DNA of 61,587 bases, filler included, from Candidatus Woesearchaeota archaeon (GCA_023266675.1; 4 parts of 4 records of this genome joined end to end with filler, not necessarily neighbours in it); one strand, 5' to 3'; shown: positions 9,626-31,073, counted from the whole stretch's first letter. Numbers and translations are program-made. The notes: generated by a model not told the origin, from the sequence alone.

Positions 9626-9675
9626 GCTTCTATAAAAAACCAATCTATTAAAATAACTTCTCATTATCTGATTCT

Positions 9676-15677: not shown

Positions 15678-15876
15678 CAACGTAATCGTGCCATCCTTTA
15701 GTTTTGCCTCTGTAATGTCCTGAATAAACAACAGTGTATCTGTCAGCAGTTCCATGTTCTTTTTCGTGTCCACCGTTATCATAACAACGAATATAACGTG
15801 GAACTCCATTTGGAATAAGTCGAGCCTTGCGTTCTTCTTTTTTTGCTTCTTTTTTACTTAATGTCGTTGTTGCCAT
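15678..15876 (-). CDS. Hypothetical phage-type protein, 3' truncated by contig end
   Basis: YDNGG...TADRYTVVY; preceded by repeat copy 15901. Confidence 0.65.
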
Positions 15877-15928
15877 TTTAGTTTGTTTTTGTTATAAACT
15901 TATAGGTCAAGTAAAAGAAAAAAAAGAA

Positions 15929-16126
15929 TTAGTCTTGTGCTTCTCCTTCTAATATGTCTGAATTAGAAAGCCCTTCTATAAATATTTGTGGCTGACTATC
16001 CAATTCACTCATTCCAATAATTTTATCCATAGTTTCCAATACATCTTGTACACAAGATAATTCAGGTTTTCTGCCTGTTGGAAAAATGTCCATTTGAATT
16101 TGAACGGTTACGGTTATTGTTTTCAT
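15929..16126 (-). CDS. Hypothetical protein, array unit
   Basis: Stop codon abuts the repeat at 15928. Confidence 0.7.
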   Translation of the reverse strand: MKTITVTVQIQMDIFPTGRKPELSCVQDVLETMDKIIGMSELDSQPQIFIEGLSNSDILEGEAQD

Positions 16127-16134
16127 ATTTTTTT

Positions 16135-16341
16135 TTATTTACGTTTTACAAAATCTTTGGTATCAGTACAGAATTTTTCAGCATCTTTTTGAAAACAGAA
16201 CTCTTCAAGTACTTTATTGTTTGGCGTACCAATTTTGAATTGTGTAACTGCCACAGATTCATCCAAGAATATTCTCAGGTTATTTATCTGCTTTACTTTT
16301 TTTAATCCTCTAAAGGGATTGTATCCGATTTGTCTGCTCAT
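16135..16341 (-). CDS. Hypothetical protein, array unit (leaderless class)
   Basis: ATG (MSRQ) 5 nt after the repeat TATA. Confidence 0.7.
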   Translation of the reverse strand: MSRQIGYNPFRGLKKVKQINNLRIFLDESVAVTQFKIGTPNNKVLEEFCFQKDAEKFCTDTKDFVKRK

Positions 16342-16374
16342 AATATTATAGGTCAAAGAAAAGAAAAAAAAGAA

Positions 16375-16584
16375 TTAAGCAAGATTAGAATAAATCGAAT
16401 TAGTGTGAACAATTTTACCATGCTTAGTAATTTTGTTTGGATTCCAAGGACTTGGAGCAAGATATTCCTCTTGAACTGTTGCATAAGTTTTAAACCCATT
16501 GCATTTATCAATAGCTTTTTGTTTGCTCTTAAAGGAATATCCTGAATAAATTCCTGCTGAATAATGAATTGTGAATTTTGCCAT
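16375..16584 (-). CDS. Hypothetical protein, array unit
   Basis: ATG (MAKF) 1 nt after the upstream stop; own stop abuts a repeat. Confidence 0.65.
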   Translation of the reverse strand: MAKFTIHYSAGIYSGYSFKSKQKAIDKCNGFKTYATVQEEYLAPSPWNPNKITKHGKIVHTNSIYSNLA

Positions 16585-16585
16585 C

Positions 16586-16861
16586 TTATAAGTGATAACC
16601 AATTTGTTTAACATTTTTCTTTACTTCTTTTTCAAATGATGTACCTGCACAATTGTGTTGGTCTGCCTCATCAATAAGAATTGCAACAACGATTGCTTTT
16701 GGAATAAGCATTGGATTAGAATTTTCATCCCAAGCATCAATGTCTATTGCGCTTGAATTCAAAGCTCTGTCAACTTTAGCTTTTTGTTTATCAAAACTTT
16801 CTTTCAGCATTTTAAGTGCCAATTTTTTGATTTGTGCTTTCTTTTTGTCTGTTGCGTTCAT
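16586..16861 (-). CDS. Hypothetical protein, array unit
   Basis: 91 aa; repeat 15 nt upstream. Confidence 0.7.
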   Translation of the reverse strand: MNATDKKKAQIKKLALKMLKESFDKQKAKVDRALNSSAIDIDAWDENSNPMLIPKAIVVAILIDEADQHNCAGTSFEKEVKKNVKQIGYHL

Positions 16862-16905
16862 GTCTTTGTTTTTTATTATAGGTCAAGGAAAATAAAAAAA
16901 AGAAA

Positions 16906-17133
16906 TTACCAAGTCATTACAACCACATCATCCAATTTAAAAAATTCACAGATTGGTTGTTTACGAGATGGTTTGCCTGTTGTATATAAAATTCTAACAG
17001 CAACCACAGGAAATTTTAATTCAGCATCAAAGCCAAGAATTTTATATTGTTTTTTACCAATCTCAAAAAATTGTCCTTTTTTACGACCTGCAAGTTCATC
17101 AACGAGTTTTATATCTGAAAATTTTTTATCCAT
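16906..17133 (-). CDS. Hypothetical protein, array unit
   Basis: 75 aa, flanked by repeats. Confidence 0.7.
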   Translation of the reverse strand: MDKKFSDIKLVDELAGRKKGQFFEIGKKQYKILGFDAELKFPVVAVRILYTTGKPSRKQPICEFFKLDDVVVMTW

Positions 17134-17177
17134 GATGTTTGTTTTTTATTATAGGTCAAAGAAAAGGAAAAAAAGAA

Positions 17178-17681
17178 TTAGAATTGAGTATTATGTTCAT
17201 TGAATACTTTGAGTTTAACTAAGCTTATTTCATTTTTAACTTGAACAAATTTTTCTTCAAGTTCAGACAATAAATTTTTAGCCTGAGTTTTGCTTAATTC
17301 ATGTTGTTGTATTCTAAAATCAAAATCAAGCGCTGATTCTATTGTATGATAAATACCCCAACTTTCTTTTTTAACAAAAATTGTTTTATCAAAGTTTGCT
17401 ATTTCTTGTTTTAAATTACCAATAGCAAATTCAAGGTTACTATACTTGAATTTACAATAAGCTTGTCCAATGCTAAAGTTTTTAACCCAACTTTTATGCA
17501 AGTCATTTTTACAAATAGCTTTCAGTACATCCACGTGCTTACCAACAACTTTACTTGATAAATGCCCATGATATTCATGGTCTTGAAATTCCTGGATAAT
17601 TCCTGCCTTAACTGGAAAGCATATTGGTAAACCAAACATCCTGTCAATGTAAAAATCTGTATCAATGCGTTTTGTTTCCAT
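17178..17681 (-). CDS. Hypothetical protein, array unit (leaderless class)
   Basis: 167 aa, flanked by repeats. Confidence 0.75.
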   Translation of the reverse strand: METKRIDTDFYIDRMFGLPICFPVKAGIIQEFQDHEYHGHLSSKVVGKHVDVLKAICKNDLHKSWVKNFSIGQAYCKFKYSNLEFAIGNLKQEIANFDKTIFVKKESWGIYHTIESALDFDFRIQQHELSKTQAKNLLSELEEKFVQVKNEISLVKLKVFNEHNTQF

Positions 17682-17714
17682 ATTGTTATAGGTCAGGGAG
17701 AACAGAAAAAAGAA

Positions 17715-18698
17715 TCAATATTTTACTAACGGAATGAAATTTTCTTTTGGATAAGTTTCTTTAAATAAAAATACTTCATCAGATAAATCTTCTTCTTTAT
17801 ATGTAACTGCTTCGCCAACTTTCAAATTTCCGCCTTGAACATAAACTTCTCCTTGATAAAAATAAATCTTATCTTGAAAAATAGAATCAAAATAATATCT
17901 TGTCAAAGAGTAAATATCTTGAAAATTACTTTCTTTACTATCATTTTTAATTAACGTCATACCAACACTATGATAATAATCATCTTTATCTCTTTTAGTA
18001 ATTACTTTACCTATGGTATAATACTTATTTAATTTTTCGCCAACTTTATTTTTATACTCTTTAAGTTTTTGAATCATTGTACTTTCAGCAAATAATTCTA
18101 AATAGATTGTTGAAAGCTCTTCCATACAAAAAGCAAAATTATCTATTGAACTAATTGTATTATCAGAAAAAATCAATTTAATTTCAACATGGTCAGGTCT
18201 TTTTAAAGTTGCAGAGTTCCAAACCCAATGAACGCTTCCATCTTTTTCAAGTAATAATTTTAGCAAATTTTTAATAATTACATTTAAGTCTATAAATGGA
18301 TTATTCCAATATTTGTCCATCATTTCATCATGCTTATCTCCAAACTTTTCAAAATTGGTTTTAAGCGTAAAAGCCCCGTATTCGATTTTATGTCTTCTTT
18401 CGTTAGCATCAGAATTTTTAACAACCTTTGTGAAAATTGTTAAATGTTGTTGGTATCTCCTAACTACTAAGGTAACATTACCATAGGTAAATGTCGACCA
18501 ACTATAATTTTTGCCTTTGTTCTCTTTAACTTTGTTAAGGTCAATTTTTTTATCCAATGATTCGATTGTCATTGAATTTTTAAGTCGTTGCAAGCCTTTG
18601 ATAACATAATTCAAAGGTTCTTTAAACTTTTGCGTAGTTTTTAATTCATATTCTATATGACGAGTTATTTGTTCTTTATCAAATTGAAATATGTCCAT
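17715..18698 (-). CDS. Hypothetical protein, array unit
   Basis: 327 aa, flanked by repeats; TGA stop abuts the repeat. Confidence 0.8.
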   Translation of the reverse strand: MDIFQFDKEQITRHIEYELKTTQKFKEPLNYVIKGLQRLKNSMTIESLDKKIDLNKVKENKGKNYSWSTFTYGNVTLVVRRYQQHLTIFTKVVKNSDANERRHKIEYGAFTLKTNFEKFGDKHDEMMDKYWNNPFIDLNVIIKNLLKLLLEKDGSVHWVWNSATLKRPDHVEIKLIFSDNTISSIDNFAFCMEELSTIYLELFAESTMIQKLKEYKNKVGEKLNKYYTIGKVITKRDKDDYYHSVGMTLIKNDSKESNFQDIYSLTRYYFDSIFQDKIYFYQGEVYVQGGNLKVGEAVTYKEEDLSDEVFLFKETYPKENFIPLVKY

Positions 18699-18742
18699 GT
18701 TGTTTGTTTTTTATTATAGGTCAAGAAAAATAAAAAAAAGAA

Positions 18743-18817
18743 TTATGGTTTTTTCTTAGAATAAAATCCAAGCCACATAGCAGCAAAAATAAGATATGCA
18801 GCGAATTTTCTAATCAT
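18743..18817 (-). CDS. 24-aa hydrophobic micro-protein MIRKFAAYLIFAAMWLGFYSKKKP
   Basis: Manual translation; stop abuts the repeat as in longer units; A-rich leader. Confidence 0.55.
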   Translation of the reverse strand: MIRKFAAYLIFAAMWLGFYSKKKP

Positions 18818-18825
18818 AATTTGTT

Positions 18826-19182
18826 TTAATTGAAAGTAATTGCTGCATCAAAATCTTTATTAGAAATAAGGTCAAGGAATTTTTGAAAACCATCTTCTGA
18901 TTCAATTTCAGATGCAGGAGAAAGTGATTTTACAAGTGCGAAAATTGCATATTCATTTTGTGGTTTAAAATGTAAACCTTGTCTGCTTATAAATGAATGT
19001 GAAGACATCTCTCTAATAACTTCATCAACTGTGTCCATCTCAATATCGTGAACACTTACACTATGAGCAAATGCAATTTGAATCTTTAAGTTTTCAAGTT
19101 CACGTAAATCAATTTCATCTCCATTAATCGTATCAACTTCTTTGCCATTGATTCTGAATACTACTTTCTTTGTCATTTTCAT
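18826..19182 (-). CDS. Hypothetical acidic protein, array unit
   Basis: 118 aa; repeat upstream. Confidence 0.7.
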   Translation of the reverse strand: MKMTKKVVFRINGKEVDTINGDEIDLRELENLKIQIAFAHSVSVHDIEMDTVDEVIREMSSHSFISRQGLHFKPQNEYAIFALVKSLSPASEIESEDGFQKFLDLISNKDFDAAITFN

Positions 19183-19243
19183 TTGTCAGGGAGATTTTGG
19201 TTTTCTTATATTATTATAGGTCAAAGAAAAGAAAAAAAAGAAT

Positions 19244-19495
19244 TTAATATACAGCAACCTCTTCCAAATCAAAATCTCTCATTTCAATTTCATTATCTTC
19301 ATCAGTTGATTCGGCTGTCAATTTCAATTCATCTTCAGCTCTGAAAACTTTTGTTTTAGATACAATAAAATGTTCATTGATAGCCAAGGCAATTGCATTG
19401 TTAAACTCAGAGGGAGAGGCTTTGTCTTTTTTAGATATTACCGCAATATTGTTTCCTTCTTTATCTGTCAGTAAAAAATGTCTGTTGCTTTGCAT
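19244..19495 (-). CDS. Hypothetical protein, array unit
   Basis: 83 aa, flanked by repeats. Confidence 0.7.
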   Translation of the reverse strand: MQSNRHFLLTDKEGNNIAVISKKDKASPSEFNNAIALAINEHFIVSKTKVFRAEDELKLTAESTDEDNEIEMRDFDLEEVAVY

Positions 19496-19552
19496 GATGT
19501 TTTGTTTTAGATTATATTGTTATAGGTCAGGGAGATTGGAAAAAAGAAAGGG

Positions 19553-20365
19553 CTATAAACCCTCTCTAAATAATTTGACTGCATCAATTATTAATTGAAT
19601 TTTTGCCTCTTCAGCAGGGTTCGGTTCGCACCAAATAAAAGGCATATTACCATGATTCCAACTACCTTTAACTTCCATGTCTTTGTCCTTTTCAAGACTT
19701 TGAAGTAGTCGGTCAATAGCTTTTATTTTTGTTGTGGATTCTACAACCAAAAACCTTGTGTTAAATCTCTTTTCTTTTGAAAGGTTATATTCAATGTCAT
19801 ACATACGAATCCTATAAGAATCGTCATAAAAGAACTCATTTTTTCCGTCTTTGCCTGTACGATACATTGTAGGTTGACCAATAGAATAAACCGTATTTGG
19901 TATTTGTTCAAAATTTTCCTTTAAAGGGTTTCATTTAACCCTGCTTTTGTGCATTTTATGAAATTCAAGAAAATTTCTGTCAGTCTTAATTATTTCAATA
20001 ATACTTGCATCTACAAAAGAATAATGAAGGCAACCATTATGATATGAAAATCCTGCAACTCCAATTAATTTATCCCAAAATGTTGAAATATTACCAAAGG
20101 TATTAGAACGGTCAGCGGATATAAGTTTATTATCAGATAGAATAACCGAATAAGTAGTATCATACCCTGATTTTGTGGTTACATCAATACGATAAAATTC
20201 ACATACTTTTCCTTTAACCTTAAAAGATTCATATAAGTAAAATTTATTTTTGAATTTATTGAAATAATCAAATAGCGGTTTTTTCTCTTGAAAGGCAAAG
20301 AAACGGCAAGCCACTTCATATAAGTCTTTCTCGTTAAGTTTTTGAGGTTTTGGTTCTGCTGTCAT
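19553..20365 (-). pseudogene. Single 271-codon frame interrupted by one in-frame TGA (19931-19933); alternatively two genes
   Basis: ORFs 19931..20365 and 19553..19867 share a frame, 21 sense codons lie between them, and no repeat separates them. Confidence 0.5.
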
Positions 20366-20420
20366 TTTCTTTGAGTTTGTTGGTTATATCTTTATAGGTC
20401 AAACAAAACAAAAAAAAGAA

Positions 20421-20891
20421 TTATATTAAACTCATCTCATATAACTGTTGAGGTGTTTTAGTCCCAGCGTGTTCGGTAAACAATTCAATCAGTTTCTCGT
20501 TTTGTTCTGCCGTATCCCATAAATATTGTGCGCAGCCCTCAAAGGTATTGAATATCAAAATAAATTCCAAGTTCTGTCCTTCAGTTTCGCAATAAGGCGC
20601 TTCCATTGTTTTTGCATCGTATTGCTTTGCCAATGCTTCAGCTCTCGTTTCTCCAAATATTCCATCCCAAGTGTAAAACGATTCATCTTGCATCATTGGT
20701 GCAAAGATGTTTCCAAGCCCATGCTTCAAGCCGTAAACTCTATGTTGAATTTGTCGGTTTCCAAGTTGCAGCTCGCAATAGTCCATAGATATGTTTCCTT
20801 TGCGAAGGTCGGAGAACTCCTGAATGTTTAACCACTCTAAGAATGATGCGAAGTCTTTAAATTGTTTTTTTATGTCCAGGAATTTTTTCAT
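20421..20891 (-). CDS. Hypothetical protein, array unit
   Basis: 156 aa, flanked by repeats. Confidence 0.75.
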   Translation of the reverse strand: MKKFLDIKKQFKDFASFLEWLNIQEFSDLRKGNISMDYCELQLGNRQIQHRVYGLKHGLGNIFAPMMQDESFYTWDGIFGETRAEALAKQYDAKTMEAPYCETEGQNLEFILIFNTFEGCAQYLWDTAEQNEKLIELFTEHAGTKTPQQLYEMSLI

Positions 20892-20946
20892 CTGTGTTTG
20901 TTTTGGTTATATTCTTATAGGTCAAACAAAACAAAAAAAAGAATTG

Positions 20947-21342
20947 CTATCCAAAAATAATGTTTTCATAGAACACCGTTTGCAAAATCACATCAGCCGT
21001 ATCTGCATCATCATTCTCTTCAATCATATCGTTTAAATGGTCGAGAGGTGTCTTTTGTACACGATTGTGGACATCTTCAAGTGTAATTGACTTATCCATA
21101 TCACCATCTCCTTCAATGTCCTTAAAAGAGAGTTTTTTGCCCATTCTTAAAATTTCCATAAAAACATCTTCAAAACAAACGCCTACATTTGGAGATTTTG
21201 CGTTAAGACTTTCTTTTGCTGCTTTATAATCATCAGCATCATAATCAATATCAAGACCGTAACCCATCATTTGACTTAGACCATTGCATAGTGCATTGTG
21301 GAAGTATTCTTCTGATTCTGCGGGCGTTAATTTGATTTCCAT
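20947..21342 (-). CDS. Hypothetical acidic phage-type protein
   Basis: Ends DDADTADVILQTVFYENIIFG; flanked by repeats. Confidence 0.75.
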   Translation of the reverse strand: MEIKLTPAESEEYFHNALCNGLSQMMGYGLDIDYDADDYKAAKESLNAKSPNVGVCFEDVFMEILRMGKKLSFKDIEGDGDMDKSITLEDVHNRVQKTPLDHLNDMIEENDDADTADVILQTVFYENIIFG

Positions 21343-21386
21343 GTTTGTTTTTTTATTATAGGTCAAAGAAAATAAAAAAAAGAATC

Positions 21387-21701
21387 TTATAACATTATTT
21401 TTAATTTTGCAATTAATGGTTTATATAACACATCTCCAACTGTATGTTGAATCATAGAATCCAATTCATTCGGAGATTCTTTTGCTAAAAATCTAATAGC
21501 GTCCGCATAAATAGAATCAGGTGATTCGATTGCTTTTTTAACTACATGTCTAATAGCTTGTTTGTCATTTTGGAAATTTAGCATATCTCCAAGTCTTTGT
21601 AACTCAAAGATATTATGCACAGCATCTTGTAAGCCAGTATTTACTATACTCCATCCTTCTGATTCTGCAACAACATTTATTTGATTCAGTGTATTTTTCA
21701 T
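21387..21701 (-). CDS. Hypothetical protein, array unit (leaderless class)
   Basis: ATG 5 nt after the repeat TATA. Confidence 0.7.
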   Translation of the reverse strand: MKNTLNQINVVAESEGWSIVNTGLQDAVHNIFELQRLGDMLNFQNDKQAIRHVVKKAIESPDSIYADAIRFLAKESPNELDSMIQHTVGDVLYKPLIAKLKIML

Positions 21702-21734
21702 ATTGTTATAGGTCAAGGAAAATAAAAAAAAGAA

Positions 21735-21920
21735 TTAATACTCTAACTTCTTATATTGTTTTAGCGCCTCTTCTGCTGAAATTTCACCTGATACAAAAGC
21801 GGTTTGAATAGAAAGAGCTTTTAGTACTGGCTTAACGAGATTTCTAATCATACATAGTTTGTAGCCGATTATTGCGCCAATAAGCATTGATACTGCTGAA
21901 ACCAAGATAAAGATAATCAT
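21735..21920 (-). CDS. Small membrane protein, array unit
   Basis: MIIFILVSAVSMLIGAIIGY TM segment; stop abuts a repeat. Confidence 0.65.
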   Translation of the reverse strand: MIIFILVSAVSMLIGAIIGYKLCMIRNLVKPVLKALSIQTAFVSGEISAEEALKQYKKLEY

Positions 21921-21931
21921 TTGTTTGTTTT

Positions 21932-22150
21932 TTATAATAAAATATAATATTCCCAGTCGCTCATTCTTGAAAAGGCACAATCACTTCTAAAAACTGCTTT
22001 CTGAATTTTATTTAAGTCTTCATAATTACCACCCATCAACACAGCTATTTTTTTAATAACATTAGTTGCTAATAATGTTCTGCCAGTAGAAGATGTTTTT
22101 TCATTTTCACGTACCAACTCGATTATTTGTGTTATTAGTTCGGCTTTCAT
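21932..22150 (-). CDS. Hypothetical protein, array unit (leaderless class)
   Basis: ATG 5 nt after the repeat TATA. Confidence 0.7.
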   Translation of the reverse strand: MKAELITQIIELVRENEKTSSTGRTLLATNVIKKIAVLMGGNYEDLNKIQKAVFRSDCAFSRMSDWEYYILL

Positions 22151-22186
22151 ATTCTTATAGGTCAAAGATAATAAAAAAAAGAAAAC

Positions 22187-22381
22187 TTAATTCCAGTTAT
22201 CAGGATTTGCCGAACCGCTTTTGATTATTGCAGCAATAACATCGCAGTTATCCACGATTGCATTACCACCATGTTTTGTTTTCAGCTTAAACAACTTATC
22301 TTTAAGTGTTTTAATATCAGGGAACTTTTCAATATCCTTGTATTTACTAAGTATTTTATCAATTGATTGGTTGATGGTCAT
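22187..22381 (-). CDS. Hypothetical protein preceded by the second motif rather than the main repeat
   Basis: 64 aa. Confidence 0.65.
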   Translation of the reverse strand: MTINQSIDKILSKYKDIEKFPDIKTLKDKLFKLKTKHGGNAIVDNCDVIAAIIKSGSANPDNWN

Positions 22382-22428
22382 AGGGAGAATTTTCTATAAA
22401 TATAAAATAATTTCCTTTGAATCTAAAG

Positions 22429-22773
22429 TTAATTTTTCTTAAAAAATGTCCAACCTTTATCATCCAAGTCAAGTGTATAATTACCGTTCTGAATCCACTT
22501 TGGAACGCTGTCAGGGCAAAGTTCAATAAGAGGCTTTAAGTTGCGTAAATCAACACGTTTAATAACTTCAGCACAATCGTCTTCAACTTCTTTTGCTAAT
22601 TCAAAAATACGAGTAAATTTACCTGTTTGTTTAAATTTTACCAATGTAGCGATTCCAAATTTGCCGCCATTGTTTGTGCCACATCCTAATGACCCATGAG
22701 TAGCACGTGTATTTTTATAACAGAACTCTCTTACGCAGTTTTCTTTTAGTTTATCAAATGTTATCTGTGCCAT
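22429..22773 (-). CDS. Hypothetical protein, array unit
   Basis: 114 aa; repeat upstream. Confidence 0.7.
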   Translation of the reverse strand: MAQITFDKLKENCVREFCYKNTRATHGSLGCGTNNGGKFGIATLVKFKQTGKFTRIFELAKEVEDDCAEVIKRVDLRNLKPLIELCPDSVPKWIQNGNYTLDLDDKGWTFFKKN

Positions 22774-22819
22774 TGCTTTGGGGTTTTTTATTATAGGTCA
22801 AAGAAAAGAAAAAAAAGAA

Positions 22820-23107
22820 TTAATAAAACATATCAGGAGAAAATCTCCTATAAACAATTTCATCATCTCTAACAACTTCTCCGAGCCAATGGGCAGGAAC
22901 AGGTATTGGTTCTGTTGACCAATCTTCTGTATCAATCAAATCATCAGTTTTATACCTTGTTTCGTGTAAATGTCCAAATAATACCGCATATTTCTTACCT
23001 CTAATCATTTGAGTTGGAATATCTGAATTTTCCTTCTCAAATTTAATATTTCCGCCATAGAATTCATCCTCTGCTTTTTCTCTTAAATCATCGGCTATAT
23101 CTCCCAT
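22820..23107 (-). CDS. Hypothetical acidic protein, array unit
   Basis: MGDIADD start; flanked by repeats. Confidence 0.7.
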   Translation of the reverse strand: MGDIADDLREKAEDEFYGGNIKFEKENSDIPTQMIRGKKYAVLFGHLHETRYKTDDLIDTEDWSTEPIPVPAHWLGEVVRDDEIVYRRFSPDMFY

Positions 23108-23150
23108 TGTTTTATTTTTATTATTATAGGTCAAAGAAAAGAAAAAAAAG

Positions 23151-23197: not shown

Positions 23198-23466
23198 ACT
23201 GTGTAGTCAATATGTTATCTATCTATGTTCCGTTTATGTTGTATAGCGATAGTGTTTTATAAATCTGGCGCTCTAATTGGGTGCATCCTCTTGGGCTTTT
23301 AGGTGAATAAAAATCGGGCAAAAAATAATTGTGCAATTTTTCTCGACTGCTTACGGCTCTGTGCTGCGGACTTACATTAGTTCTAAGTTTTTTTAATTAA
23401 TATTTTTTATATGTTTGAGTGTTACTCTGAGAACTTATAGGTCAAGGAAAATAAAAAAAAGAAAGA

Positions 23467-23811
23467 CTACATTTTTTCAAGTTTATATTCAGCAAAATCT
23501 GCAATTGCATCGTCCCAACATCCAATAATATAAGGAACTACTTCTCTTTTTTGATTTAATCGTGTTCTTATAATTCTTTTTTTCTGAAACTTCTTTGATA
23601 TGGGGTGCATAGTATCATTTTCTAATACATCCTCCCAATTGGTTTTTTTATGTTTTTCAACAAATTCAATAGCCCAAGATGAAATCAAATCCACAACTGC
23701 AATGTAGCCTATTTGACTTTTATTATACAATCTCTTTAGAATATGGTCAGCTATAATAGCTGCTACCATTGAACATTCTCTTGCATAATCCTTTTTATTT
23801 AAAGTTTTCAT
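23467..23811 (-). CDS. Hypothetical protein, array unit
   Basis: Flanked by repeats. Confidence 0.7.
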   Translation of the reverse strand: MKTLNKKDYARECSMVAAIIADHILKRLYNKSQIGYIAVVDLISSWAIEFVEKHKKTNWEDVLENDTMHPISKKFQKKRIIRTRLNQKREVVPYIIGCWDDAIADFAEYKLEKM

Positions 23812-23857
23812 CTTTTGTTTTTTATTATAGGTCAAGGAGAATAGAAAAAAGAAAAAG

Positions 23858-24427
23858 TTATTCAATCAAATTCATATCTTCACTAAAAAATTCAGTAGAA
23901 AAACATACATGATTTTTATTTCCTTTCATATCAGATAAACCATGAACTAATACAGTATAAACATAAAATGGTTTACGATTTTCTGTATTGTAACTAATAT
24001 GAAAAGGACAAATTGAACTTTCAAAGTTTAAATTGGCTTTAACTCCAATCACAACAACTCCTTTTACATTATCAATACATTCAACTATTGTTTTAAACCA
24101 ATCCTTTGATTCTTCGTGCCTTTTAAATACAGATGATTCACACGCTTTTTTTCCTTTAATAATTTTACTATATGTATTTAATGTTTTTTGTGTACTATCA
24201 AATTTATATACAAAATTTCTTTCAATTTCAGTTTTAAGATTTGTTATAGAGTTATTTCTCCATTCGTGCATAATTGCATCAATTACCTTGCGTCTATTAG
24301 ATTTTCCTTCATAACTCTTTTTATCCCATTTAATTGATACTTTATCTCCAATATTAAATTTTTGTCCAGTCAAATTTATTTCGACTTCTTTTGTACTATC
24401 GTGCGGATATATTGGTCTGTTTGGCAT
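23858..24427 (-). CDS. Hypothetical protein, array unit (leaderless class)
   Basis: ATG 5 nt after the repeat TATA; KFNIGDKVSI SH3-like start. Confidence 0.72.
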   Translation of the reverse strand: MPNRPIYPHDSTKEVEINLTGQKFNIGDKVSIKWDKKSYEGKSNRRKVIDAIMHEWRNNSITNLKTEIERNFVYKFDSTQKTLNTYSKIIKGKKACESSVFKRHEESKDWFKTIVECIDNVKGVVVIGVKANLNFESSICPFHISYNTENRKPFYVYTVLVHGLSDMKGNKNHVCFSTEFFSEDMNLIE

Positions 24428-24460
24428 ATTGTTATAGGTCAAGGAGAATAGAAAAAAGAA

Positions 24461-24742
24461 TTATAATGTATATTCCATACTTGAAACTTCTTTGTATGAT
24501 TCAGGCAAAGCGCCAAAAACATTAAATTCAATTCCGTATGTACCTTTGTAATGCCTGCCTGCATAATGTTTAATATCTGCATTGTCAGGTGTAATATGAG
24601 GAAAATCTTTTTTTACTTCATCAAACAATCTTTGAAAGAAACCAAAGCTGCTTCCATAGCTATTTGTACGAACAATAACTCTTTTCTCATCAATAGAGTT
24701 AGGTTCTTTGTCAAATTTAGCGAACTCTTTTATAAAATTCAT
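24461..24742 (-). CDS. Hypothetical protein, array unit
   Basis: 93 aa, flanked by repeats. Confidence 0.72.
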   Translation of the reverse strand: MNFIKEFAKFDKEPNSIDEKRVIVRTNSYGSSFGFFQRLFDEVKKDFPHITPDNADIKHYAGRHYKGTYGIEFNVFGALPESYKEVSSMEYTL

Positions 24743-24791
24743 GGCTGTTTGTTTTTTATTATAGGTCAGGGAGAACAGAAAAAAGAAAGAC

Positions 24792-25130
24792 TTATTTTAA
24801 TGTACATTCAAAGTGTTGAATTGCTTCTTTTACTGCTTCATCAACAGTATTAGATGAACCTGATGCGTGAATGTTGTACTTCCCGCTATAAGAATTACAG
24901 TCAAATTTTAATTTCGCCTTATCTACATCATCAAAACGACTAAAAACAGTATAGCAATAATTGTGTTCATTGTATAGATTAATCACTAAACGCCCAACAA
25001 TTGTTTTAAGTTCAAAGGAAGTCATAAAATCCATACGATTAACAATAGGGAGCGCACCAAGTTCTAAGATTTTTTCTATGAACTTTTTATTGAACTCTGC
25101 CGCTTTTTTCTTTGTGATTTTACCTGACAT
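24792..25130 (-). CDS. Hypothetical protein, array unit
   Basis: VFSRF...NSYSGKYNIH; flanked by repeats. Confidence 0.72.
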   Translation of the reverse strand: MSGKITKKKAAEFNKKFIEKILELGALPIVNRMDFMTSFELKTIVGRLVINLYNEHNYCYTVFSRFDDVDKAKLKFDCNSYSGKYNIHASGSSNTVDEAVKEAIQHFECTLK

Positions 25131-25175
25131 GGCTGTTTGTTTTTTATTATAGGTCAAAGAAAAGAAAAAAAAGAA

Positions 25176-25697
25176 TTACTTACAATTTGTCCTTAATGAT
25201 TCTAACAAGTCAGCATAATATTTATCTTTCAGCTCAGGGGATTTTTCCCAAAGCGCATTGCGTAACGCTTCTTGTTTTTTCCACTCAATATGTTCAATTG
25301 TTAATTTTTTTTCTAAATTTAGAGCAGCATCAAACACATTTTCAAGATTTTGTGATGAAAATGAAGTTCCAACTCCATGAGCAGTTTTATAACGATATTT
25401 TGTTTCATCCATTATATTGCCAAAATCAGCCTCTTTGTCAGATTGTTGAACATCGTGATACTTTCTATCATCTGTACCATCGTACACCTGCAATTCAATT
25501 TCGTGCCCATCATGTAGGTCTTCAGTTTCGCAGATTGTTTTTATAAGATAGATGAATCCATTATAAGAAACATCATTTTGTAATGTGAAGCCGTTTTTAA
25601 TTGCCCATTCTTTTGCTCGTGCATAGTTCGGACAATCTTTGTTTTTTTCTATTTCCCAGTTTTTAAGACGTTCTTGATAAGGGTTTTTTGTTTCCAT
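25176..25697 (-). CDS. Hypothetical protein, array unit (leaderless class)
   Basis: ATG 5 nt after the repeat TATA. Confidence 0.72.
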   Translation of the reverse strand: METKNPYQERLKNWEIEKNKDCPNYARAKEWAIKNGFTLQNDVSYNGFIYLIKTICETEDLHDGHEIELQVYDGTDDRKYHDVQQSDKEADFGNIMDETKYRYKTAHGVGTSFSSQNLENVFDAALNLEKKLTIEHIEWKKQEALRNALWEKSPELKDKYYADLLESLRTNCK

Positions 25698-25732
25698 ATT
25701 ATTATAGGTCAAAGATAACAAAAAAAAGAAAT

Positions 25733-26071
25733 TTAATGCGTAGAAATATGACTTTGAGCGCCTTCTTTATGCAAAAAACAAGCAGACGAACCTTTAACAT
25801 CAAAACAAAATAATTCTGTGGTTTCTTTAATCCTAAAACCTTTATTTGTTCTTATTACATGAAAATAAACAATCGCAATATCTTCAGGATTTGTGCTTCC
25901 CTGGATTGTTGGATTGGTTTCCCAAGCAGCTTTCATTGAAACGTACCCAAGTCGTTTGTGGATATTGTAATTCCTGCAATACTCTTTGAATTCTTTAAAA
26001 TCGCCATTGTAAACTTTTTGCAGTTTATCTTGCCAACCTCTTGCTCCTGACATACAAGTTACTTGTTTCAT
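25733..26071 (-). CDS. Hypothetical protein, array unit
   Basis: 112 aa, flanked by repeats. Confidence 0.72.
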   Translation of the reverse strand: MKQVTCMSGARGWQDKLQKVYNGDFKEFKEYCRNYNIHKRLGYVSMKAAWETNPTIQGSTNPEDIAIVYFHVIRTNKGFRIKETTELFCFDVKGSSACFLHKEGAQSHISTH

Positions 26072-26114
26072 CTGTTTGTTTTTTATTATAGGTCAAAGAA
26101 AAGAAAAAAAAGAA

Positions 26115-26306
26115 TCACTCCACATCAGCACTCAATACAACATTTTCATCTCCAAGAACATTTTTAACGTGCGCTATTCCTCCTTCAGAAGCACTTTTTA
26201 TTCTTGTCTTGCCATCGGCAATATCTTGATGGAATACAGAACCTCTAAAGTATCTATCATAATTCTTTTTAAATTCAGCAGAATCAACAATATATATTTT
26301 TGCCAT
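26115..26306 (-). CDS. Hypothetical protein with a degenerate upstream repeat
   Basis: 63 aa; TGA abuts the downstream repeat. Confidence 0.65.
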   Translation of the reverse strand: MAKIYIVDSAEFKKNYDRYFRGSVFHQDIADGKTRIKSASEGGIAHVKNVLGDENVVLSADVE

Positions 26307-26340
26307 TGTGTTTTTTTATTATAAGATTAAACAAAAATAA

Positions 26341-26619
26341 TTATGAACCTATACCAAAGGGAGAGCGTTGTGTTCCACGATTTTTAGGAAAATCAAATTC
26401 ATCAGGCAGTTTTTCAGAATGTTCTTCAAGAAACAAATCGTTGCCCCTTAAATATGCTTCCTTTGAATCTAAACTTAATCTTCTGATTTGGCTCGGTCTT
26501 TCACAGCCTCCATCGCTTAATAGAAACTCAATTCCATCATTTATGGCTTGTTTTCTTGTTTTAGAATTTAGTCCTGTATTAAGATAATCCCCTTTATCTC
26601 TGTCGAATAGTGAATACAT
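26341..26619 (-). CDS. Hypothetical protein, array unit
   Basis: 92 aa; repeat upstream. Confidence 0.7.
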   Translation of the reverse strand: MYSLFDRDKGDYLNTGLNSKTRKQAINDGIEFLLSDGGCERPSQIRRLSLDSKEAYLRGNDLFLEEHSEKLPDEFDFPKNRGTQRSPFGIGS

Positions 26620-26662
26620 ATCTGTTTGTTTTTATATTATAGGTCAAAGAAAAAGAAAAAAA

Positions 26663-26682
26663 GAAAGGGAGATTTCCCTTTC
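26663..26682 (-). terminator. Intrinsic terminator-like hairpin
   Basis: GAAAGGGA-GATT-TCCCTTTC followed by the repeat T-tract; the same 18-nt core recurs at 28725-28742. Confidence 0.7.
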
Positions 26683-27376
26683 AATCAACATCATACCCGA
26701 TGAAATTATCATCATTGATAAGCAAATAATAATAACCATTACCACAATCTTTAAATTCGAGGGAAAGATAACCAATAAATTCACCCACTTCTCTTTTTGC
26801 TGTGCTTAAACTCATGTCATAACCTGCAAAACTTACACCGCTGCAAATATGCCCCTCTGATTGATTTTTTATTGCTTCACGTAGTCTTTGTGCATAATGA
26901 GGATATTGTTTGCCTATGCGCTCAATTGATACCACTTTGCCATCAATTTTGTTTCCTGTGGTAATGTGCAAGTCATATAAACTTTTAGGACGAGGTTCAC
27001 GAGTTGAATCGTATTCATCTTTTTTTAAATCTTTTACCCAAGTTTCAAAGTCAGGCAATTTCTTACAGTCCTCAATAAAACTATTTGTAAATGTTGCCAA
27101 ACTTGCAAGTTTTTTATATTTGGCAATTTCATTATATTGTGATTTCAATTTAGCTTCTGCTGTTTTTGGCTCAGGTTTTCCTTGAAAAGTTTTAAAGTCT
27201 GAAAATAAACCTTCGCCCACAACATAACCAACACGACTTTTGCCCTTTGGAAAATAACATAAACGCTCATTGGTTGCAACGAAAAGTCTATAAAGTTGTC
27301 CTTCTTTTGTTTTGGCTGAAACAATATCTTTATTTTCAACTGCATCTTGTAGTTCGTAAATATTTTTTGGTTGCAT
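26681..27376 (-). CDS. Hypothetical phage-type protein
   Basis: 231 aa ending SLEFKDCGNGYYYLLINDDNFIGYDVD. Confidence 0.78.
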   Translation of the reverse strand: MQPKNIYELQDAVENKDIVSAKTKEGQLYRLFVATNERLCYFPKGKSRVGYVVGEGLFSDFKTFQGKPEPKTAEAKLKSQYNEIAKYKKLASLATFTNSFIEDCKKLPDFETWVKDLKKDEYDSTREPRPKSLYDLHITTGNKIDGKVVSIERIGKQYPHYAQRLREAIKNQSEGHICSGVSFAGYDMSLSTAKREVGEFIGYLSLEFKDCGNGYYYLLINDDNFIGYDVD

Positions 27377-27429
27377 GGTTCGTTTGTTTTGGTATATTAT
27401 TATAGGTCAAAGAAAACAAAAAAAAGAAT

Positions 27430-27906
27430 TTACAAACTTGAAAGTAAATTATTTACATCATTTAAAAATCCAATATGTTTTTTTAAATCATAATCAAAAA
27501 TTGTTAATGTAAAAACACTAATATTAAAATGTTCTTTATTTGATAAACAAGATAACGAATTTGTTTGTTCATCATACCCTGCCTCTTCAAATTCACTCTC
27601 AAATATCGTAGGAGGATTTATAAGAAAAAATAATTCATCATATTTCTTTTTATTTAAACTTGCGAATCTTTGTATTAATTTTTGATTAACTTCTTTTGTA
27701 ATAGCAAAGTATATATAACTTTGTTCATCTCCACGAAGAACGCCTCTTTTTGAAAATAAAGTTTGTACATTTTGATTCTTATTGATATTAATTAATATTT
27801 CTTTTAAGCCTGAATCAATTGCCCAATAATCATTTATACAAGGGAGAACATTCATATTGAAGTCTTCCATGTATTTCTTTTTAAGTTCTGCAGTTAAAAA
27901 TTTCAT
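27430..27906 (-). CDS. Hypothetical protein, array unit
   Basis: 158 aa, flanked by repeats. Confidence 0.72.
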   Translation of the reverse strand: MKFLTAELKKKYMEDFNMNVLPCINDYWAIDSGLKEILININKNQNVQTLFSKRGVLRGDEQSYIYFAITKEVNQKLIQRFASLNKKKYDELFFLINPPTIFESEFEEAGYDEQTNSLSCLSNKEHFNISVFTLTIFDYDLKKHIGFLNDVNNLLSSL

Positions 27907-28006
27907 ATCTTGATTTGTTTGGTTATATCTTTATAGGTCAGACAAAACAAAAAAAAGAAAGGGAGAGATTTGGCCCGCCCTTTCTTTTCATCTTAAAGTA
28001 AATTAT

Positions 28007-28306
28007 TTATTTTGTTACAAAGCCAATATTTTTTTTGAACTTCTCAACATCTAATACTTCAAATGGCAATAAATCATCAAAAAATTCTTTATCATTACCT
28101 GCTAAACTTTTTAGCCCAATAACTGCCCTGCTGACATGGGCACGAGCAACACGAAGACTCATTCCGTTTTTCTTAGCATACTTCTTTGCTAATACTTCAG
28201 GTTTTCGTCCTTTAACAAGATTAATTGTTACCTCTTGTTTAAATGGGGAGAGTATATCAATATACTCATCTAACATTAAAGATTTTTCGTTACCAAATCC
28301 ACACAT
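28007..28306 (-). CDS. Small basic HTH-like protein, paralog 1
   Basis: YIDILSPFKQEV...LAKKYAKKN...HVSRAVIGL resembles sigma region 4/LuxR-type HTH spacing. Confidence 0.6.
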   Translation of the reverse strand: MCGFGNEKSLMLDEYIDILSPFKQEVTINLVKGRKPEVLAKKYAKKNGMSLRVARAHVSRAVIGLKSLAGNDKEFFDDLLPFEVLDVEKFKKNIGFVTK

Positions 28307-28370
28307 ATTTTTAAGTTTTAGATTATTTATTTTATTATACGATAATTAGATAAAAAAGTTTCAAATTATA

Positions 28371-28640
28371 TCATTTTACATTTTTTGCTTTTGTCTTTGC
28401 TGCTCTTATACCTGCTCCAAGCCCCTTTACTTTGCCACCTGTAATTTCATTCAATCCATTAACTACCATAGTAACAAAAGCCTGATAAGTAGCAACTGGT
28501 TTTTTATTTTTCTTTGCCAATAACTTAGCTACATTATGCGGTTCTACTCCTGATAGAATAGTTAGACCAATTGTTTTTTTAAAGGGAGAGAGCATAGACA
28601 CATACGTTTCTGCTTTTTGTCTGTTAGATTCTTTTTTCAT
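28371..28640 (-). CDS. Small basic HTH-like protein, paralog 2
   Basis: YVSMLSPFKKTI...VAKLLAKKN...FVTMVVNGL aligns without gaps to paralog 1. Confidence 0.6.
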   Translation of the reverse strand: MKKESNRQKAETYVSMLSPFKKTIGLTILSGVEPHNVAKLLAKKNKKPVATYQAFVTMVVNGLNEITGGKVKGLGAGIRAAKTKAKNVK

Positions 28641-28741
28641 AGTTCTTTGTTAGATAATTGTTAATTTATCTAACAAAGATATAAAAAATTTTCTATAAAT
28701 ATAAAATTAACTTATAAAAACTAAAAAGGGAGATTTCCCTT

Positions 28742-29575
28742 TTAGTCTTTTATCCTTTGAAGTTGTGCAAATATCATTTGATTGCCTTTTTTATCTTTAT
28801 TGTCAGTATATACTTCAGGCATAGAATATATTGCATATCTTCCATCTAAACATAAATCTTGTAAAAATTTTAAAAGAGTTGAGAAAACTAAACTTTTATG
28901 GTCATTTTTAAGTTGCTCTACTTTTGCGCCACCTAAAATTTTAGTAGCAATTGTATTAATATTTTTGTCTCTTGTTGCGAATGTCATAGATATAATTCCT
29001 TTTTTCTTTACAAGATTTTTTTCAACAGTTTTTGACACTAAGCCTTTATATATTGAAAATGTTTCACACATATCAAAATCAGCATGAGCAAGTGAATCTG
29101 AATCCAAATAATTAAGATGTTCTCTAACAGAATAAGGGTAAAGGTGCAATTTTAAATTAAACTCTTTTGTTTTTCTTTTAATTTCATTTATTGCTTTTGG
29201 ACAATTTTCGTTGCCAAGAAATGTAAAATTATTGTTTGGAATTAATCTATTTATTCTAAAAACATCATCACAAGTTTGGCTGGGCATAAAAAATAAAAAA
29301 CCTTCTATAATTCCTGAATCTAAATAAGAAAATGTTTTTTTATCTCTTATTCTATCTTTCTCTTTTCCTTCAGTATTTTTAAATTTAAAATTTGCTTCTG
29401 CATTTTTCTTTCTTGTTATCCAAGCCTTATTTGCTCTGTCAGAAAGTTCTTTTTTGCGTTTTTCAATTTCAATATCTTTAGACCGTAAAACTATTTCTGA
29501 GTTTTTTCGTCTTGTTGCCCATGCTTTATTTGCTATATCAGAAAGTTCTTGCTTACTTTTTTGTAGGTTTTTCAT
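28742..29575 (-). CDS. Protein with tandem ANKAWxTR repeats and a possible Rossmann/methyltransferase-like domain
   Basis: ELSDIANKAWATRRKN and ELSDRANKAWITRKKN; later HADFDMC and GIISMTF. Confidence 0.6.
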   Translation of the reverse strand: MKNLQKSKQELSDIANKAWATRRKNSEIVLRSKDIEIEKRKKELSDRANKAWITRKKNAEANFKFKNTEGKEKDRIRDKKTFSYLDSGIIEGFLFFMPSQTCDDVFRINRLIPNNNFTFLGNENCPKAINEIKRKTKEFNLKLHLYPYSVREHLNYLDSDSLAHADFDMCETFSIYKGLVSKTVEKNLVKKKGIISMTFATRDKNINTIATKILGGAKVEQLKNDHKSLVFSTLLKFLQDLCLDGRYAIYSMPEVYTDNKDKKGNQMIFAQLQRIKD

Positions 29576-29630
29576 TTTCGATAAGTTGTTTTTAGTTATA
29601 TACTTATAGGTCAAATAAAAGAAAAAAAAG

Positions 29631-29658
29631 AAAGGGAGAGGTTTAAAATTCTCCCTTT
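29631..29658 (-). terminator. Intrinsic terminator-like hairpin
   Basis: AAAGGGAGA...TCTCCCTTT directly after the gene stop and followed by the repeat T-tract. Confidence 0.7.
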
Positions 29659-29662
29659 ATAT

Positions 29663-30460
29663 TTAAGCGGCTACTCTTAAATAAGTGCCTTCGTAGATGG
29701 CTTTTAATTGATTTGCAATACCACTTTCATCGTTACCTAAATCTTCAACAGTTGCCCTACAAAGATTTGCAATAAATAAACCAATACTAAATTTTTCAGT
29801 GTTTAATATTAACAATACAAGTTTTTCTTGATATTGACGTGTTTTTGGAAGTGTATTATTAGATGAATAACAATTTTTTATTGCATTAATTGTTTCATTT
29901 GCTTTTTTATTCACAATTTTAAATTCGCCACTTTTAATATCTGCGCTTACATCTTTTCTGCTTTTTAAACTGAAAATCATTGGCAAAACACTACTGGTTA
30001 CTATTTTGCCTTTCAATGCTTCTGCTAATATTATATAGTCTTTTTTACCCTCTTTTACGCTTTGTTTAACATACTCTAATAAAGCCCACGGTTTTTGTGT
30101 ATTATTTAATGTTCGCATTGCTGCAGACTTGTCCTTACCATTATATACAATACAATAAATTTCAGATTGTTTTGTTTCTCTACTACCTTTAAAAAGATGT
30201 TGCCCATCTAAAATAATATATTTATTTGTTTTTATATCAAATGTAACAACAGGACAACGCAATAAACCCAAAAGCTGCAAACTAATAGACATTTTTTTAA
30301 TATGACTACTATTGGAATCTCTATTTGTTTTATCAAATTGTAAAATTCCATCTTCTTTTATAAATTCTGAATATGGAACTGCAAGAATTAATAAATTAAA
30401 AAGTTTAAACAAAGTTGTTTCTAAAATTTTACCGAATTTAATTGTTTTGATAGTTTTCAT
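29663..30460 (-). CDS. ParB/Srx-like N-terminal domain protein
   Basis: NRD..SHIKKM..S...G...P.V...YIILDGQHL, then LNNTQKPW. Confidence 0.7.
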   Translation of the reverse strand: MKTIKTIKFGKILETTLFKLFNLLILAVPYSEFIKEDGILQFDKTNRDSNSSHIKKMSISLQLLGLLRCPVVTFDIKTNKYIILDGQHLFKGSRETKQSEIYCIVYNGKDKSAAMRTLNNTQKPWALLEYVKQSVKEGKKDYIILAEALKGKIVTSSVLPMIFSLKSRKDVSADIKSGEFKIVNKKANETINAIKNCYSSNNTLPKTRQYQEKLVLLILNTEKFSIGLFIANLCRATVEDLGNDESGIANQLKAIYEGTYLRVAA

Positions 30461-30923
30461 AATGTTGTGGTTTTTAGTTTGTTTATATTATTATAGGTCA
30501 GAGAAAAGAAAAAAAAGAAAATTTCTAAATTTAGAATTTTTATATATCTTGTTTTCTTTTCATATTATTATAGGTCAGACAAAACAAAAAAAAGAAAATA
30601 CTTTCAGCCTGAACAAAAATATAACATACCAAAATATAAGGCAGGAGTGGATTAACCCTGACCCTTTTCGGTGGTCGACTCAAGTTGTAAACTTTCTGTC
30701 TTACATTATTATAGGTCAGAGAAAAGAAAAAAAAGAAAAGGAAAAAGAGAAATAAATCCCTTTGCCCATCCAAGCGGTTAACCACTCCGCAAACCAAAAC
30801 TAAAACTAAACCAACCAAAAAAAACTATTTAATGTGTCATTGTGAGGTTCAATGTGCAAACAACCGCCCCGTTTGCATTGGGACAACCTGTAAAAATCAG
30901 GTTTCACAATATTTTTAAGCAAC

Positions 30924-31070: not shown

Positions 31071-31073
31071 TTT

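What the first reader, a model, noticed from the sequence alone, without database searches (positions are those of the whole stretch)
15678..30737. Modular gene array punctuated by 29 copies of a length-invariant 28-nt element
Seen: coding-strand TTCT-N15-TGACCTATA occurs 29 times in 15 kb, always intergenic and in one orientation. Both ends are invariant, and the length is exactly 28 nt although the middle is a variable, slippage-prone T-tract. Most units hold one short unrelated ORF and a few hold two or three. Inference: fixed spacing implies a protein reading both ends, such as a dedicated sigma factor/RNA polymerase or a recombinase. Known analogues in organisation are the SPO1 host-takeover module and the PeSL promoter cassettes of T4-like phages, but I do not recognise this motif. 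The cargo would be a pool of candidate host-takeover or anti-defence genes.
Basis: partly seen in the sequence, partly recalled or inferred. Interest (0 to 1): 0.9.

Follow-up and report, generated by a model that had tools for sequence, protein, structure and literature searches.

The report
Giant-phage private promoter, borrowed by islands
The repeat is most likely the private promoter that a very large virus of Bacteroidota bacteria places in front of about a hundred small early genes, and small integrated elements in the hosts' chromosomes carry the same promoter in front of their own recombinases, which suggests they switch on when that virus infects.

Summary
Observation confirmed: 29 copies, all on the minus strand (0 in 100 shuffles). 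The array is a whole contig, misbinned into an archaeal genome along with three sister contigs that carry 75 more copies, an ECF sigma factor, tRNAs and phage genes. It reads as a two-box promoter: spacing is identical at 104 of 106 sites, and ATG lies exactly 5 nt behind the box at 98 of 399 sites. It is not the Bacteroidota housekeeping consensus and is at background level in host chromosomes. Related phage contigs carry a different two-box motif of the same length, so the motif changes with the phage clade. A protein from the array region has relatives on contigs of 394 and 539 kb. All 8 GTDB genomes that matched are Bacteroidota. There the motif clusters in integrase-bearing islands, often directly before a resolvase or large serine recombinase; 9 island protein families recur in same-motif phage contigs, 2 in the sister clade. 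The factor that reads the motif was not found, and no RNA data were usable. Site-specific cassette recombination is not supported. Look-ups of this scan by sequence and words found no earlier report. It works like a PeSL array, but is not one.

The parts
15678..31073 (-). Contig C74 in full: a fragment of the early/hypervariable region of a large Bacteroidota phage, misbinned into an archaeal genome bin
   Evidence: Equals C74 exactly. C3, C74, C10 and C68 are the 4 most deviant of 60 contigs of 8 kb or more in tetranucleotide use. No SD-like motif before 26 of 26 ORFs of 80 aa or more.
15901..30737 (-). 29 copies of the two-box element TTCTTTTTT-N10-TGACCTATA, low coordinates: 15901, 16347, 16877, 17150, 17687, 18715, 19215, 19521, 20393, 20916, 21357, 21707, 22156, 22792, 23125, 23436, 23826, 24433, 24760, 25148, 25703, 26087, 26638, 27401, 27932, 29605, 30492, 30569, 30710 (28 nt each)
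30624..30709 (-). Conserved non-coding unit of about 75-85 nt directly behind the first motif copy; candidate small RNA or DNA site
   Evidence: 21 copies aligned from the bin, L137 and metagenome loci; no Rfam match; only 3 consensus pairs, no covariation
29663..30460 (-). 265-aa ParB-like protein behind the copy at 30492
   Evidence: phrog_12305, E 9.8e-14
28674..28681 (-). TATCTTTG, a match to the Bacteroidota housekeeping -7 box, before ORF 28371-28640, which has no 28-nt element of its own
   Evidence: consensus from PMC6847099. A single short match; function inferred.
28338..28363 (-). TGAAAC-N16-CGTA, a sigmaW-type ECF promoter (second class) before ORF 28007-28306
   Evidence: same class 35 times in 11 related loci, spacer 16 in 33 of 35; consensus from PMC5758882
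28007..28640 (-). Two paralogous small ORFs (89 and 99 aa); the 99-aa one has a 49% identical homologue in island L247
24792..25130 (-). 112-aa cargo ORF of a family that also occurs in island L066
23467..23811 (-). 114-aa cargo ORF with homologues in islands L246, L247, L248 (37-40%) and L154, and in arrays L056 and L109
16135..25697 (-). Six ORFs whose ATG lies exactly 5 nt behind the box (starts at 25697, 24427, 22150, 21701, 17681, 16341): inferred leaderless messages that mark the start site
23153..23435 (-). Unit behind the copy at 23436 with no ORF of 40 aa or more; ends in a GC-rich hairpin before the next copy
15678..15876 (-). Last cargo ORF, cut by the contig end; an 84% identical second copy of this unit ends contig C68

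Best explanation
The element is a two-box promoter: a left box TTCTTTTTT at about -33 to -25 and a right box (T)GACCTATA at about -14 to -6, with the start about 6 nt behind it (inferred). It heads nearly every transcription unit of the early, hypervariable region of a large lytic Bacteroidota phage; about a quarter of copies sit on the U-tract of the previous unit's terminator hairpin. It is read by a phage-supplied factor, most likely a sigma-type subunit made first or carried in the virion (inferred; not found). It stands first in a cascade: it drives an ECF sigma gene, whose product then most likely reads TGAAAC-N16-CGTA promoters. Promoter-plus-gene units are gained and lost by ordinary recombination between the near-identical copies, as with PeSLs. 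Small integrated islands of the same host groups carry the same promoter before cargo taken from the same gene pool and before their recombinases, so the phage's factor would switch them on (inferred, about even odds). Shown: the motif, its spacing, the ATG peak, phage context, host phylum, islands and shared genes.
For: Spacing: 104 of 106 GACCTATA sites have the left box at one offset. ATG 5 nt behind the box at 98 of 399 sites, next best offset 21; 26 of 104 in this bin. Other starts follow A-rich leaders with no SD (0 of 19 in the window), as in Bacteroidota (PMC6847099). Bin contigs C3, C10, C68 carry the motif plus an ECF sigma (Pfam r2 and r4), ParB, GP88, DUF932, a Lar-like ORF and tRNAs. 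Three IMG/VR contigs share the C10 neighbourhood (353-aa protein at 49-50%, sigma at 28-33%) and carry TTTAAGTT-N14/15-TCTAT 96, 69 and 17 times, controls 0, with the same ATG peak in G009 (26 of 96), plus endolysin, ligase, HNH, deformylase and NAD synthetase. The 353-aa protein has homologues on 538,531-bp (66%) and 393,507-bp (50%) contigs. The sigma gene lies behind the two-box motif in 4 of 4 phage contigs. All 21 GTDB stretches (8 genomes) are Bacteroidota. 1 of 400 other genomes of the class has a match, controls 4. Hairpins of -8 kcal or stronger precede 25 of 104 copies against 9% of 600 control windows. Islands: motif directly before a large serine recombinase in L066 and L247 and before a resolvase in 8 loci; 9 protein families shared with 67 kb of same-motif phage contigs against 2 with 141 kb of sister-clade contigs.
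Against: No transcript or start-site data. The reading factor was not found in 56 kb of bin contigs or 141 kb of sister contigs. No capsid, terminase or polymerase gene was linked to this clade, so 'phage' rests on accessory genes and on the sister contigs. The 539-kb and 394-kb contigs could not be read; they are not shown to be phages or to carry the motif, and CheckV completeness of the sister contigs (41, 18, 16%) implies about 190 kb. The island right box is looser (G before ACCTATA in 38 of 72, against 106 of 106 in phage contigs). No island with the sister motif was found in 68 genomes. Island sharing of cargo could reflect a shared host range alone. Early timing is inferred from gene type and the sigma gene's position.
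Confidence: 0.65

Rival explanations
1. Same promoter, but read by the ECF sigma found on C10, in a positive feedback loop; the TGAAAC-CGTA class is then read by a host ECF sigma.
For: The C10 sigma gene has only the 28-nt motif upstream. The sigma differs between the clades (28-33% identity), as the motif does. ECF promoters have strict spacers and -35-proximal T-tracts (PMC5758882).
Against: Its closest named phage hits are annotated sigma-W-like, and a sigmaW-type class exists in the same contigs and overlaps the sigma gene's promoter in 3 of 3 sister contigs. Both boxes differ strongly from that consensus. Something else would have to start the loop.
Confidence: 0.13
2. An 'establishment' regulon: host polymerase reads the motif with help from, or under repression by, a regulator that each element encodes itself, for example the shared 160-170-aa protein. 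Islands are then autonomous and need no phage.
For: That protein occurs in 11 of 13 island loci, in C68 and in all 3 sister contigs. Its N-terminal part weakly resembles AP2/WGR DNA-binding folds (Z 6.4, rmsd 3.2, 59 residues). Island cargo includes ArdC, DUF932, DUF2958 and DUF6876, and self-regulated repeated promoters of such genes are known (PMC6294495, abstract).
Against: The protein is no closer between same-motif carriers (18-27%) than to the sister clade (20-22%). The fold match is within the range of chance arrangements. It is absent from 2 of 13 island loci. Host chromosomes hold no regulon of this motif, and no separate operator was seen.
Confidence: 0.13
3. The element is a site-specific recombination site of an integron-like cassette array.
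For: One gene per repeat, fixed length, and high turnover: among homologous units in different arrays the next unit was of the same family in 17 of 108 pairs. Islands carry recombinases.
Against: The motif is not palindromic (sequence). No recombinase among the 34 + 89 array ORFs scanned. The 4 units shared by C3 and L137 keep their order. Back-to-back pairs and the ATG peak fit promoters. The 15 joints listed have only 20-43 nt on one side, come from single contigs and mostly have unknown letters between.
Confidence: 0.05
4. The array belongs to the archaeon, or is an assembly artefact.
Against: Separate contigs with outlying composition; bacterial sigma factor; motif found only in Bacteroidota genomes; arrays recur in many unrelated metagenomes; exact pieces span several copies.
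Confidence: 0.02

Closest known systems
PeSL promoter-terminator cassettes of T4-like phages (PMC2839356, passages; PMC4122927, first third)
   Same: Repeated intergenic promoter, often with an upstream G/C stem-loop, in regions of small orphan genes that differ by gain and loss of units.
   Different: PeSL promoters match the host sigma70 consensus; this motif does not match the Bacteroidota one and differs between phage clades. About 100 or more copies. Only 25 of 104 have a strong hairpin. Mini-circles not shown. No island counterpart in the passages read.
SPO1 host-takeover module (recalled; the paper was not held)
   Same: A block of small early genes, each or each few behind a strong, near-identical promoter.
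   Different: SPO1 uses host sigmaA promoters in a roughly 12-kb module (recalled); here at least 56 kb and a non-host motif.
Phage satellites that follow a helper's programme: P4 with P2 Ogr/delta (recalled; title seen in a reference list), PLE with ICP1 (PMC13595925, passages), I55 with jumbo phage JPTI55 (PMC12595487, passages)
   Same: Integrated, integrase-bearing islands with defence cargo and no recognised capsid genes, tied to a lytic phage.
   Different: Here the link would be a direct copy of the helper's early promoter before many genes, including the recombinase. For PLE the sensing step is described as open; for I55 no shared promoter appears in the passages read. Induction and packaging are untested here.
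Establishment-gene regulon of plasmid p576 (Reg576; PMC6294495, abstract and outline)
   Same: Repeated upstream elements before ardC and similar genes on a mobile element.
   Different: Those are host-read promoters with a dual-heptamer operator and an RHH repressor; no operator or RHH repressor was identified here, and the main carrier is a phage.
B. subtilis sigmaW-type ECF promoters (PMC5758882, passages)
   Same: The second class here (TGAAAC/TGTAAC-N16-CGTA) matches; the 28-nt element shares strict spacing and a -35-side T-tract.
   Different: Both boxes of the 28-nt element differ from that consensus.

Membership tests
PeSL | Repeated intergenic element in a region of small orphan genes | tested here: met
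   29 copies; 0 of 34 ORFs reach a Pfam cut-off
PeSL | Promoter identical to the host housekeeping consensus | tested here: not met
   No TAHHTTTG in the motif; background level in host genomes
PeSL | Adjacent terminator stem-loop | tested here: inconclusive
   25 of 104 copies against 9% of controls: enriched, but a minority
PeSL | Unit exchange by recombination between copies; mini-circles | tested here: inconclusive
   Neighbour turnover 91 of 108 pairs; no very close pair of genomes; contig joints uninformative
PeSL | Carried by a T4-like phage | tested here: inconclusive
   No core structural genes reached; the 353-aa protein has no match in INPHARED
Integron cassette array | Imperfect inverted-repeat attC sites (definition recalled) | tested here: not met
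   The 28-nt consensus is not self-complementary
Integron cassette array | Linked tyrosine integrase | tested here: inconclusive
   None among 34 + 89 ORFs scanned, but the replicon is incomplete
SPO1-type host-takeover module | Host-sigma early promoters (recalled) | tested here: not met
   As for PeSL
SPO1-type host-takeover module | Genes shut off host synthesis | not testable with these tools
   Needs expression tests
Phage satellite (islands) | Chromosomal integration with own integrase | tested here: met
   Tyrosine integrase or large serine recombinase in L138, L139, L140, L149, L066, L247, L248, L261; next to tRNA genes (L139, L154) or a cut comM-type gene (L247)
Phage satellite (islands) | No own capsid, packaging or conjugation genes | tested here: inconclusive
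   None among 139 island and flank proteins scanned with Pfam; not all ORFs scanned; many have no family; one Rep_trans gene in L261
Phage satellite (islands) | Helper-induced excision, replication and transfer | not testable with these tools
   Hosts and phage are uncultured
Establishment regulon (Reg576 type) | Element-encoded regulator that binds the repeat | tested here: inconclusive
   Candidate shared protein: no clear fold, no tracking of motif type

The most novel reading that the evidence does not exclude
An undescribed lineage of very large Bacteroidota phages starts infection from more than 100 copies of a clade-specific promoter read by an unknown phage factor, and a family of chromosomal islands in at least two host orders has wired its recombinases and captured phage genes to that same promoter. 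They would be satellites that sense the phage by copying its first promoter, with promoter change between phage clades as the escape route.
Probability: 0.4. Interest if true: 0.88.

Novelty: new variant of a known kind. Interest (0 to 1): 0.72.

Why it matters
How large phages start their programme when they do not use the host's promoter is largely open. Here the target sequence is known from hundreds of copies in two clade-specific versions, which makes the reading factor findable in a complete genome and testable in vitro. It could give an orthogonal expression system for Bacteroidota. The islands offer a direct, sequence-level answer to how a satellite can sense a lytic helper. The units also mark hundreds of small candidate host-takeover and anti-defence genes, and the motif can be used to rescue array fragments that assemblies break and bins misassign.

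Tried and rejected
IMG/VR pattern scan: 3 stretches, single copies, taken as chance. Single-protein scans of IMG/VR with ParB, sigma and the 353-aa protein: none; the alignment scan returned only the 3 known contigs. The 353-aa protein was not found in 5 motif-bearing genomes or INPHARED; its model (pLDDT 91) gives only weak zincin-like matches (best Z 6.4, rmsd 5.2, 208 residues), so it was dropped as a sigma or polymerase candidate. Five published huge phages that were top hits for a sister-contig reductase each encode a related sigma, but a relaxed motif was not above control in them, and the two 49-kb stretches read showed no such array. No RNA holder listed; the one RNA run laid gave next to no cover: no evidence either way. 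The non-coding unit has no Rfam family and no supported structure. Three conserved island genes have no Pfam family; two are paralogues. Atlas searches gave no usable hit. Of 11 single host copies fetched, 3 lie beside a Pfam-supported recombinase, 1 more by eye, and the rest look like chance. In the tree I labelled P0009 as an IMG/VR protein without checking; that label is not used. Literature searches found no description of this motif; for GACCTATA only 30 of 373 listings were seen, all unrelated by title. No supplements were read, and motif tables in supplements of huge-phage papers could bear on novelty.
Full report
OBSERVATION. The pattern occurs 29 times between 15901 and 30737, all on the minus strand, against 0 in 100 shuffles. 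The window is four contigs joined by N-linkers, and 15678-31073 is contig C74 in full. The flanking contigs look archaeal (PCNA, RadA, HerA/Mre11 and GatAB are my reading of the translations, not a tool result; earlier notes call the bin a DPANN archaeon). They say nothing about the array. The exact pattern also occurs in bin contigs C3 (34), C68 (28) and C10 (7) and in none of the other 79. These four are the 4 most deviant of 60 contigs in tetranucleotide use.

ANATOMY. Over 98 sites the left box is TTCTTTTTT and the right box TGACCTATA(A). Of 106 GACCTATA sites in the four contigs, 104 have the left box at the same offset. Over 399 sites from the bin and from metagenome and genome loci with two or more copies, the first ORF starts exactly 5 nt behind the box at 98; the next most common offsets have 21 each; 60 have no ORF nearby. 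I infer that this ATG is at or near the start site. That puts the boxes near -33 and -10, the geometry of a sigma-type promoter. Longer leaders are A-rich and lack SD motifs (0 of 19 in the window, A at -3 in 10 of 19), as described for Bacteroidota (PMC6847099, passages). In 21 of 104 sites the motif begins right at the previous stop codon. In 25 of 104 a hairpin of -8 kcal/mol or stronger precedes the T-run, against 9% of 600 control windows, so some copies probably double as terminators. A conserved non-coding unit follows some copies, including the first in the window.

WHAT CARRIES IT. The window's 34 ORFs are nearly all orphans: none reaches a Pfam cut-off, and one is ParB-like. The other three contigs add an ECF-type sigma directly behind a motif copy, ParB, GP88, DUF932, a Lar-like ORF and tRNA genes. 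A DUF932 scan of IMG/VR gave 59 loci; the best 3 (61-65%) share the C10 neighbourhood. They lack this motif but carry TTTAAGTT-N14/15-TCTAT 96, 69 and 17 times, with 0 in controls. The spacer is 15 in 69 of 69 and 17 of 17 sites, and 15 or 14 in G009; the ATG peak at 5 nt recurs in G009 (26 of 96) but not in the other two. These contigs encode endolysin, DNA ligase, HNH nucleases, peptide deformylase and NAD synthetase. The 353-aa C10 protein has 195 homologues. In a tree of 120 of them it falls in a 75-row group with the protein from a 538,531-bp contig, apart from a 45-row group holding the sister proteins and one from a 393,507-bp contig (SH-aLRT 99, midpoint root). I could not read those long contigs, and CheckV values imply about 190 kb, so the size is somewhere from jumbo to mega. 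No capsid or terminase gene was reached. The near-identical end units of C74 and C68 (84%) leave open whether the bin holds one phage or two.

WHO READS IT. Not the housekeeping sigma: the Bacteroidota consensus is TAHHTTTG at -12 to -5 (PMC6847099), which the motif lacks, while such boxes occur separately before some phage genes. Not a host regulon: 1 of 400 other genomes of the class has one match, controls 4. With a relaxed pattern, 15 of 68 and 12 of 151 genomes of two orders match, but clusters are confined to islands or array contigs and singles are near control level. A second class, TGAAAC/TGTAAC-N16-CGTA (spacer 16 in 33 of 35; one copy at window 28338-28363), matches the sigmaW consensus (PMC5758882, passages) and is the likelier target of the ECF sigma, whose best named phage hits are sigma-W-like proteins of crAss-like phages at about 30%. 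The sigma gene sits behind the two-box motif in all 4 phage contigs, which places that motif upstream in the cascade. The 353-aa protein folds weakly like a zincin peptidase, and the shared 160-170-aa protein has no clear fold. A review notes that jumbo phages without their own polymerase often encode sigma factors for phage-specific promoters (PMC13282480, passages), which is the default model here.

ISLANDS. The GTDB scan returned 21 stretches from 8 genomes, all Bacteroidota by title. One is a dense array contig (L137). Most others lie in long chromosomal contigs, within elements that have a tyrosine integrase or large serine recombinase, a resolvase, defence or toxin-antitoxin genes, and 2-11 motif copies. 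A profile search with the shared protein matched 6 of 68 genomes of one order and added three islands with 9-11 copies and a looser right box. The motif lies directly before the large serine recombinase in L066 and L247 and before the resolvase in L044, L139, L140, L143, L246, L247, L248 and L256. Cargo includes ArdC, DUF932, DUF2958 and DUF6876. Of 191 protein families in 13 island loci, 9 recur in same-motif phage contigs (67 kb, 173 ORFs) and 2 in sister contigs (141 kb, 288 ORFs); three window ORFs are among them. Against the satellite reading: no island with the sister motif in 68 genomes, a looser right box, and no test of induction or packaging.

MOBILITY OF UNITS. Among homologous units in different arrays, the next unit was of the same family in 17 of 108 pairs; some short loci counted as arrays may be island fragments. 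The 4 units shared by C3 and L137 keep their order. This fits gain and loss of promoter-gene units by homologous recombination, as shown for PeSLs (PMC2839356, passages), rather than an ordered site-specific system. Contig joints (15 shown, 26 not shown) have 20-43 nt on one side and are best read as motif copies from other contigs.

COMPARISON AND VERDICT. It works like a PeSL or SPO1-type early array but fails their host-consensus test, so it is not filed as a member. The islands meet the integration test for satellites; the rest is untested. Ten literature searches and two look-ups of this scan found no description; supplements were not read. The finding is real and not an artefact, though misbinned. 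Novelty: new variant of a known kind. Interest 0.72. Most novel open reading: islands that sense a giant phage by copying its first promoter (probability 0.4, interest 0.88).

Noticed in passing
window 30624-30709 (-); L153:8090-8172, 4256-4333, 9745-9822; L151:602-682; L137 (three copies): Multi-copy non-coding unit behind the motif with a conserved 3' core of about 25 nt; no Rfam family, structure unresolved.
   Followed up: partly
L153 near 9543-9850; L137 near 3678-3988; L035 near 1024-1333: A motif-driven peptide of about 24-26 aa converges on a motif-driven copy of that non-coding unit, just after the DUF932 gene; recalls a type I toxin-antitoxin layout.
   Followed up: no
L144:8797-9728, L146:8229-9525, L247:2181-3467, L256:6463-7761 and other islands: Conserved three-gene island module (two paralogues of 110-135 aa and an 80-aa protein), no Pfam family; 46 distant representatives for the smallest.
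   Followed up: partly
L151:7147-8208 (contig C10): Conserved 353-aa phage protein with an invariant HE..K motif and a weak zincin-like fold; 195 homologues; a useful marker for this phage lineage.
   Followed up: partly
L157:3022, 5576; L158:855, 4725; L151 near 8254: TATTTAT(A) before homing-endonuclease and other genes: a possible late promoter class.
   Followed up: no
window 15678-15927 and C68 16317-16560: Both contigs end in the same unit at 84% identity: a duplicated unit or two related phages in the bin.
   Followed up: no
L247:17021-19469; L066:2037-8616: Large-serine-recombinase islands beside a shortened comM/YifB-type gene (Pfam-checked for L247, by eye for L066).
   Followed up: partly
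window 2900-4147 and 4685-4781 (contig C73): An integrase-like ORF (my reading) near a tRNA gene with an intron-like insert in the archaeal contig; unrelated to the array.
   Followed up: no
W02 (LR756500.1): The reversed control pattern matched 26 times, and one 29-nt stretch recurs three times at 182974-192225; not explained by the stretch read.
   Followed up: partly
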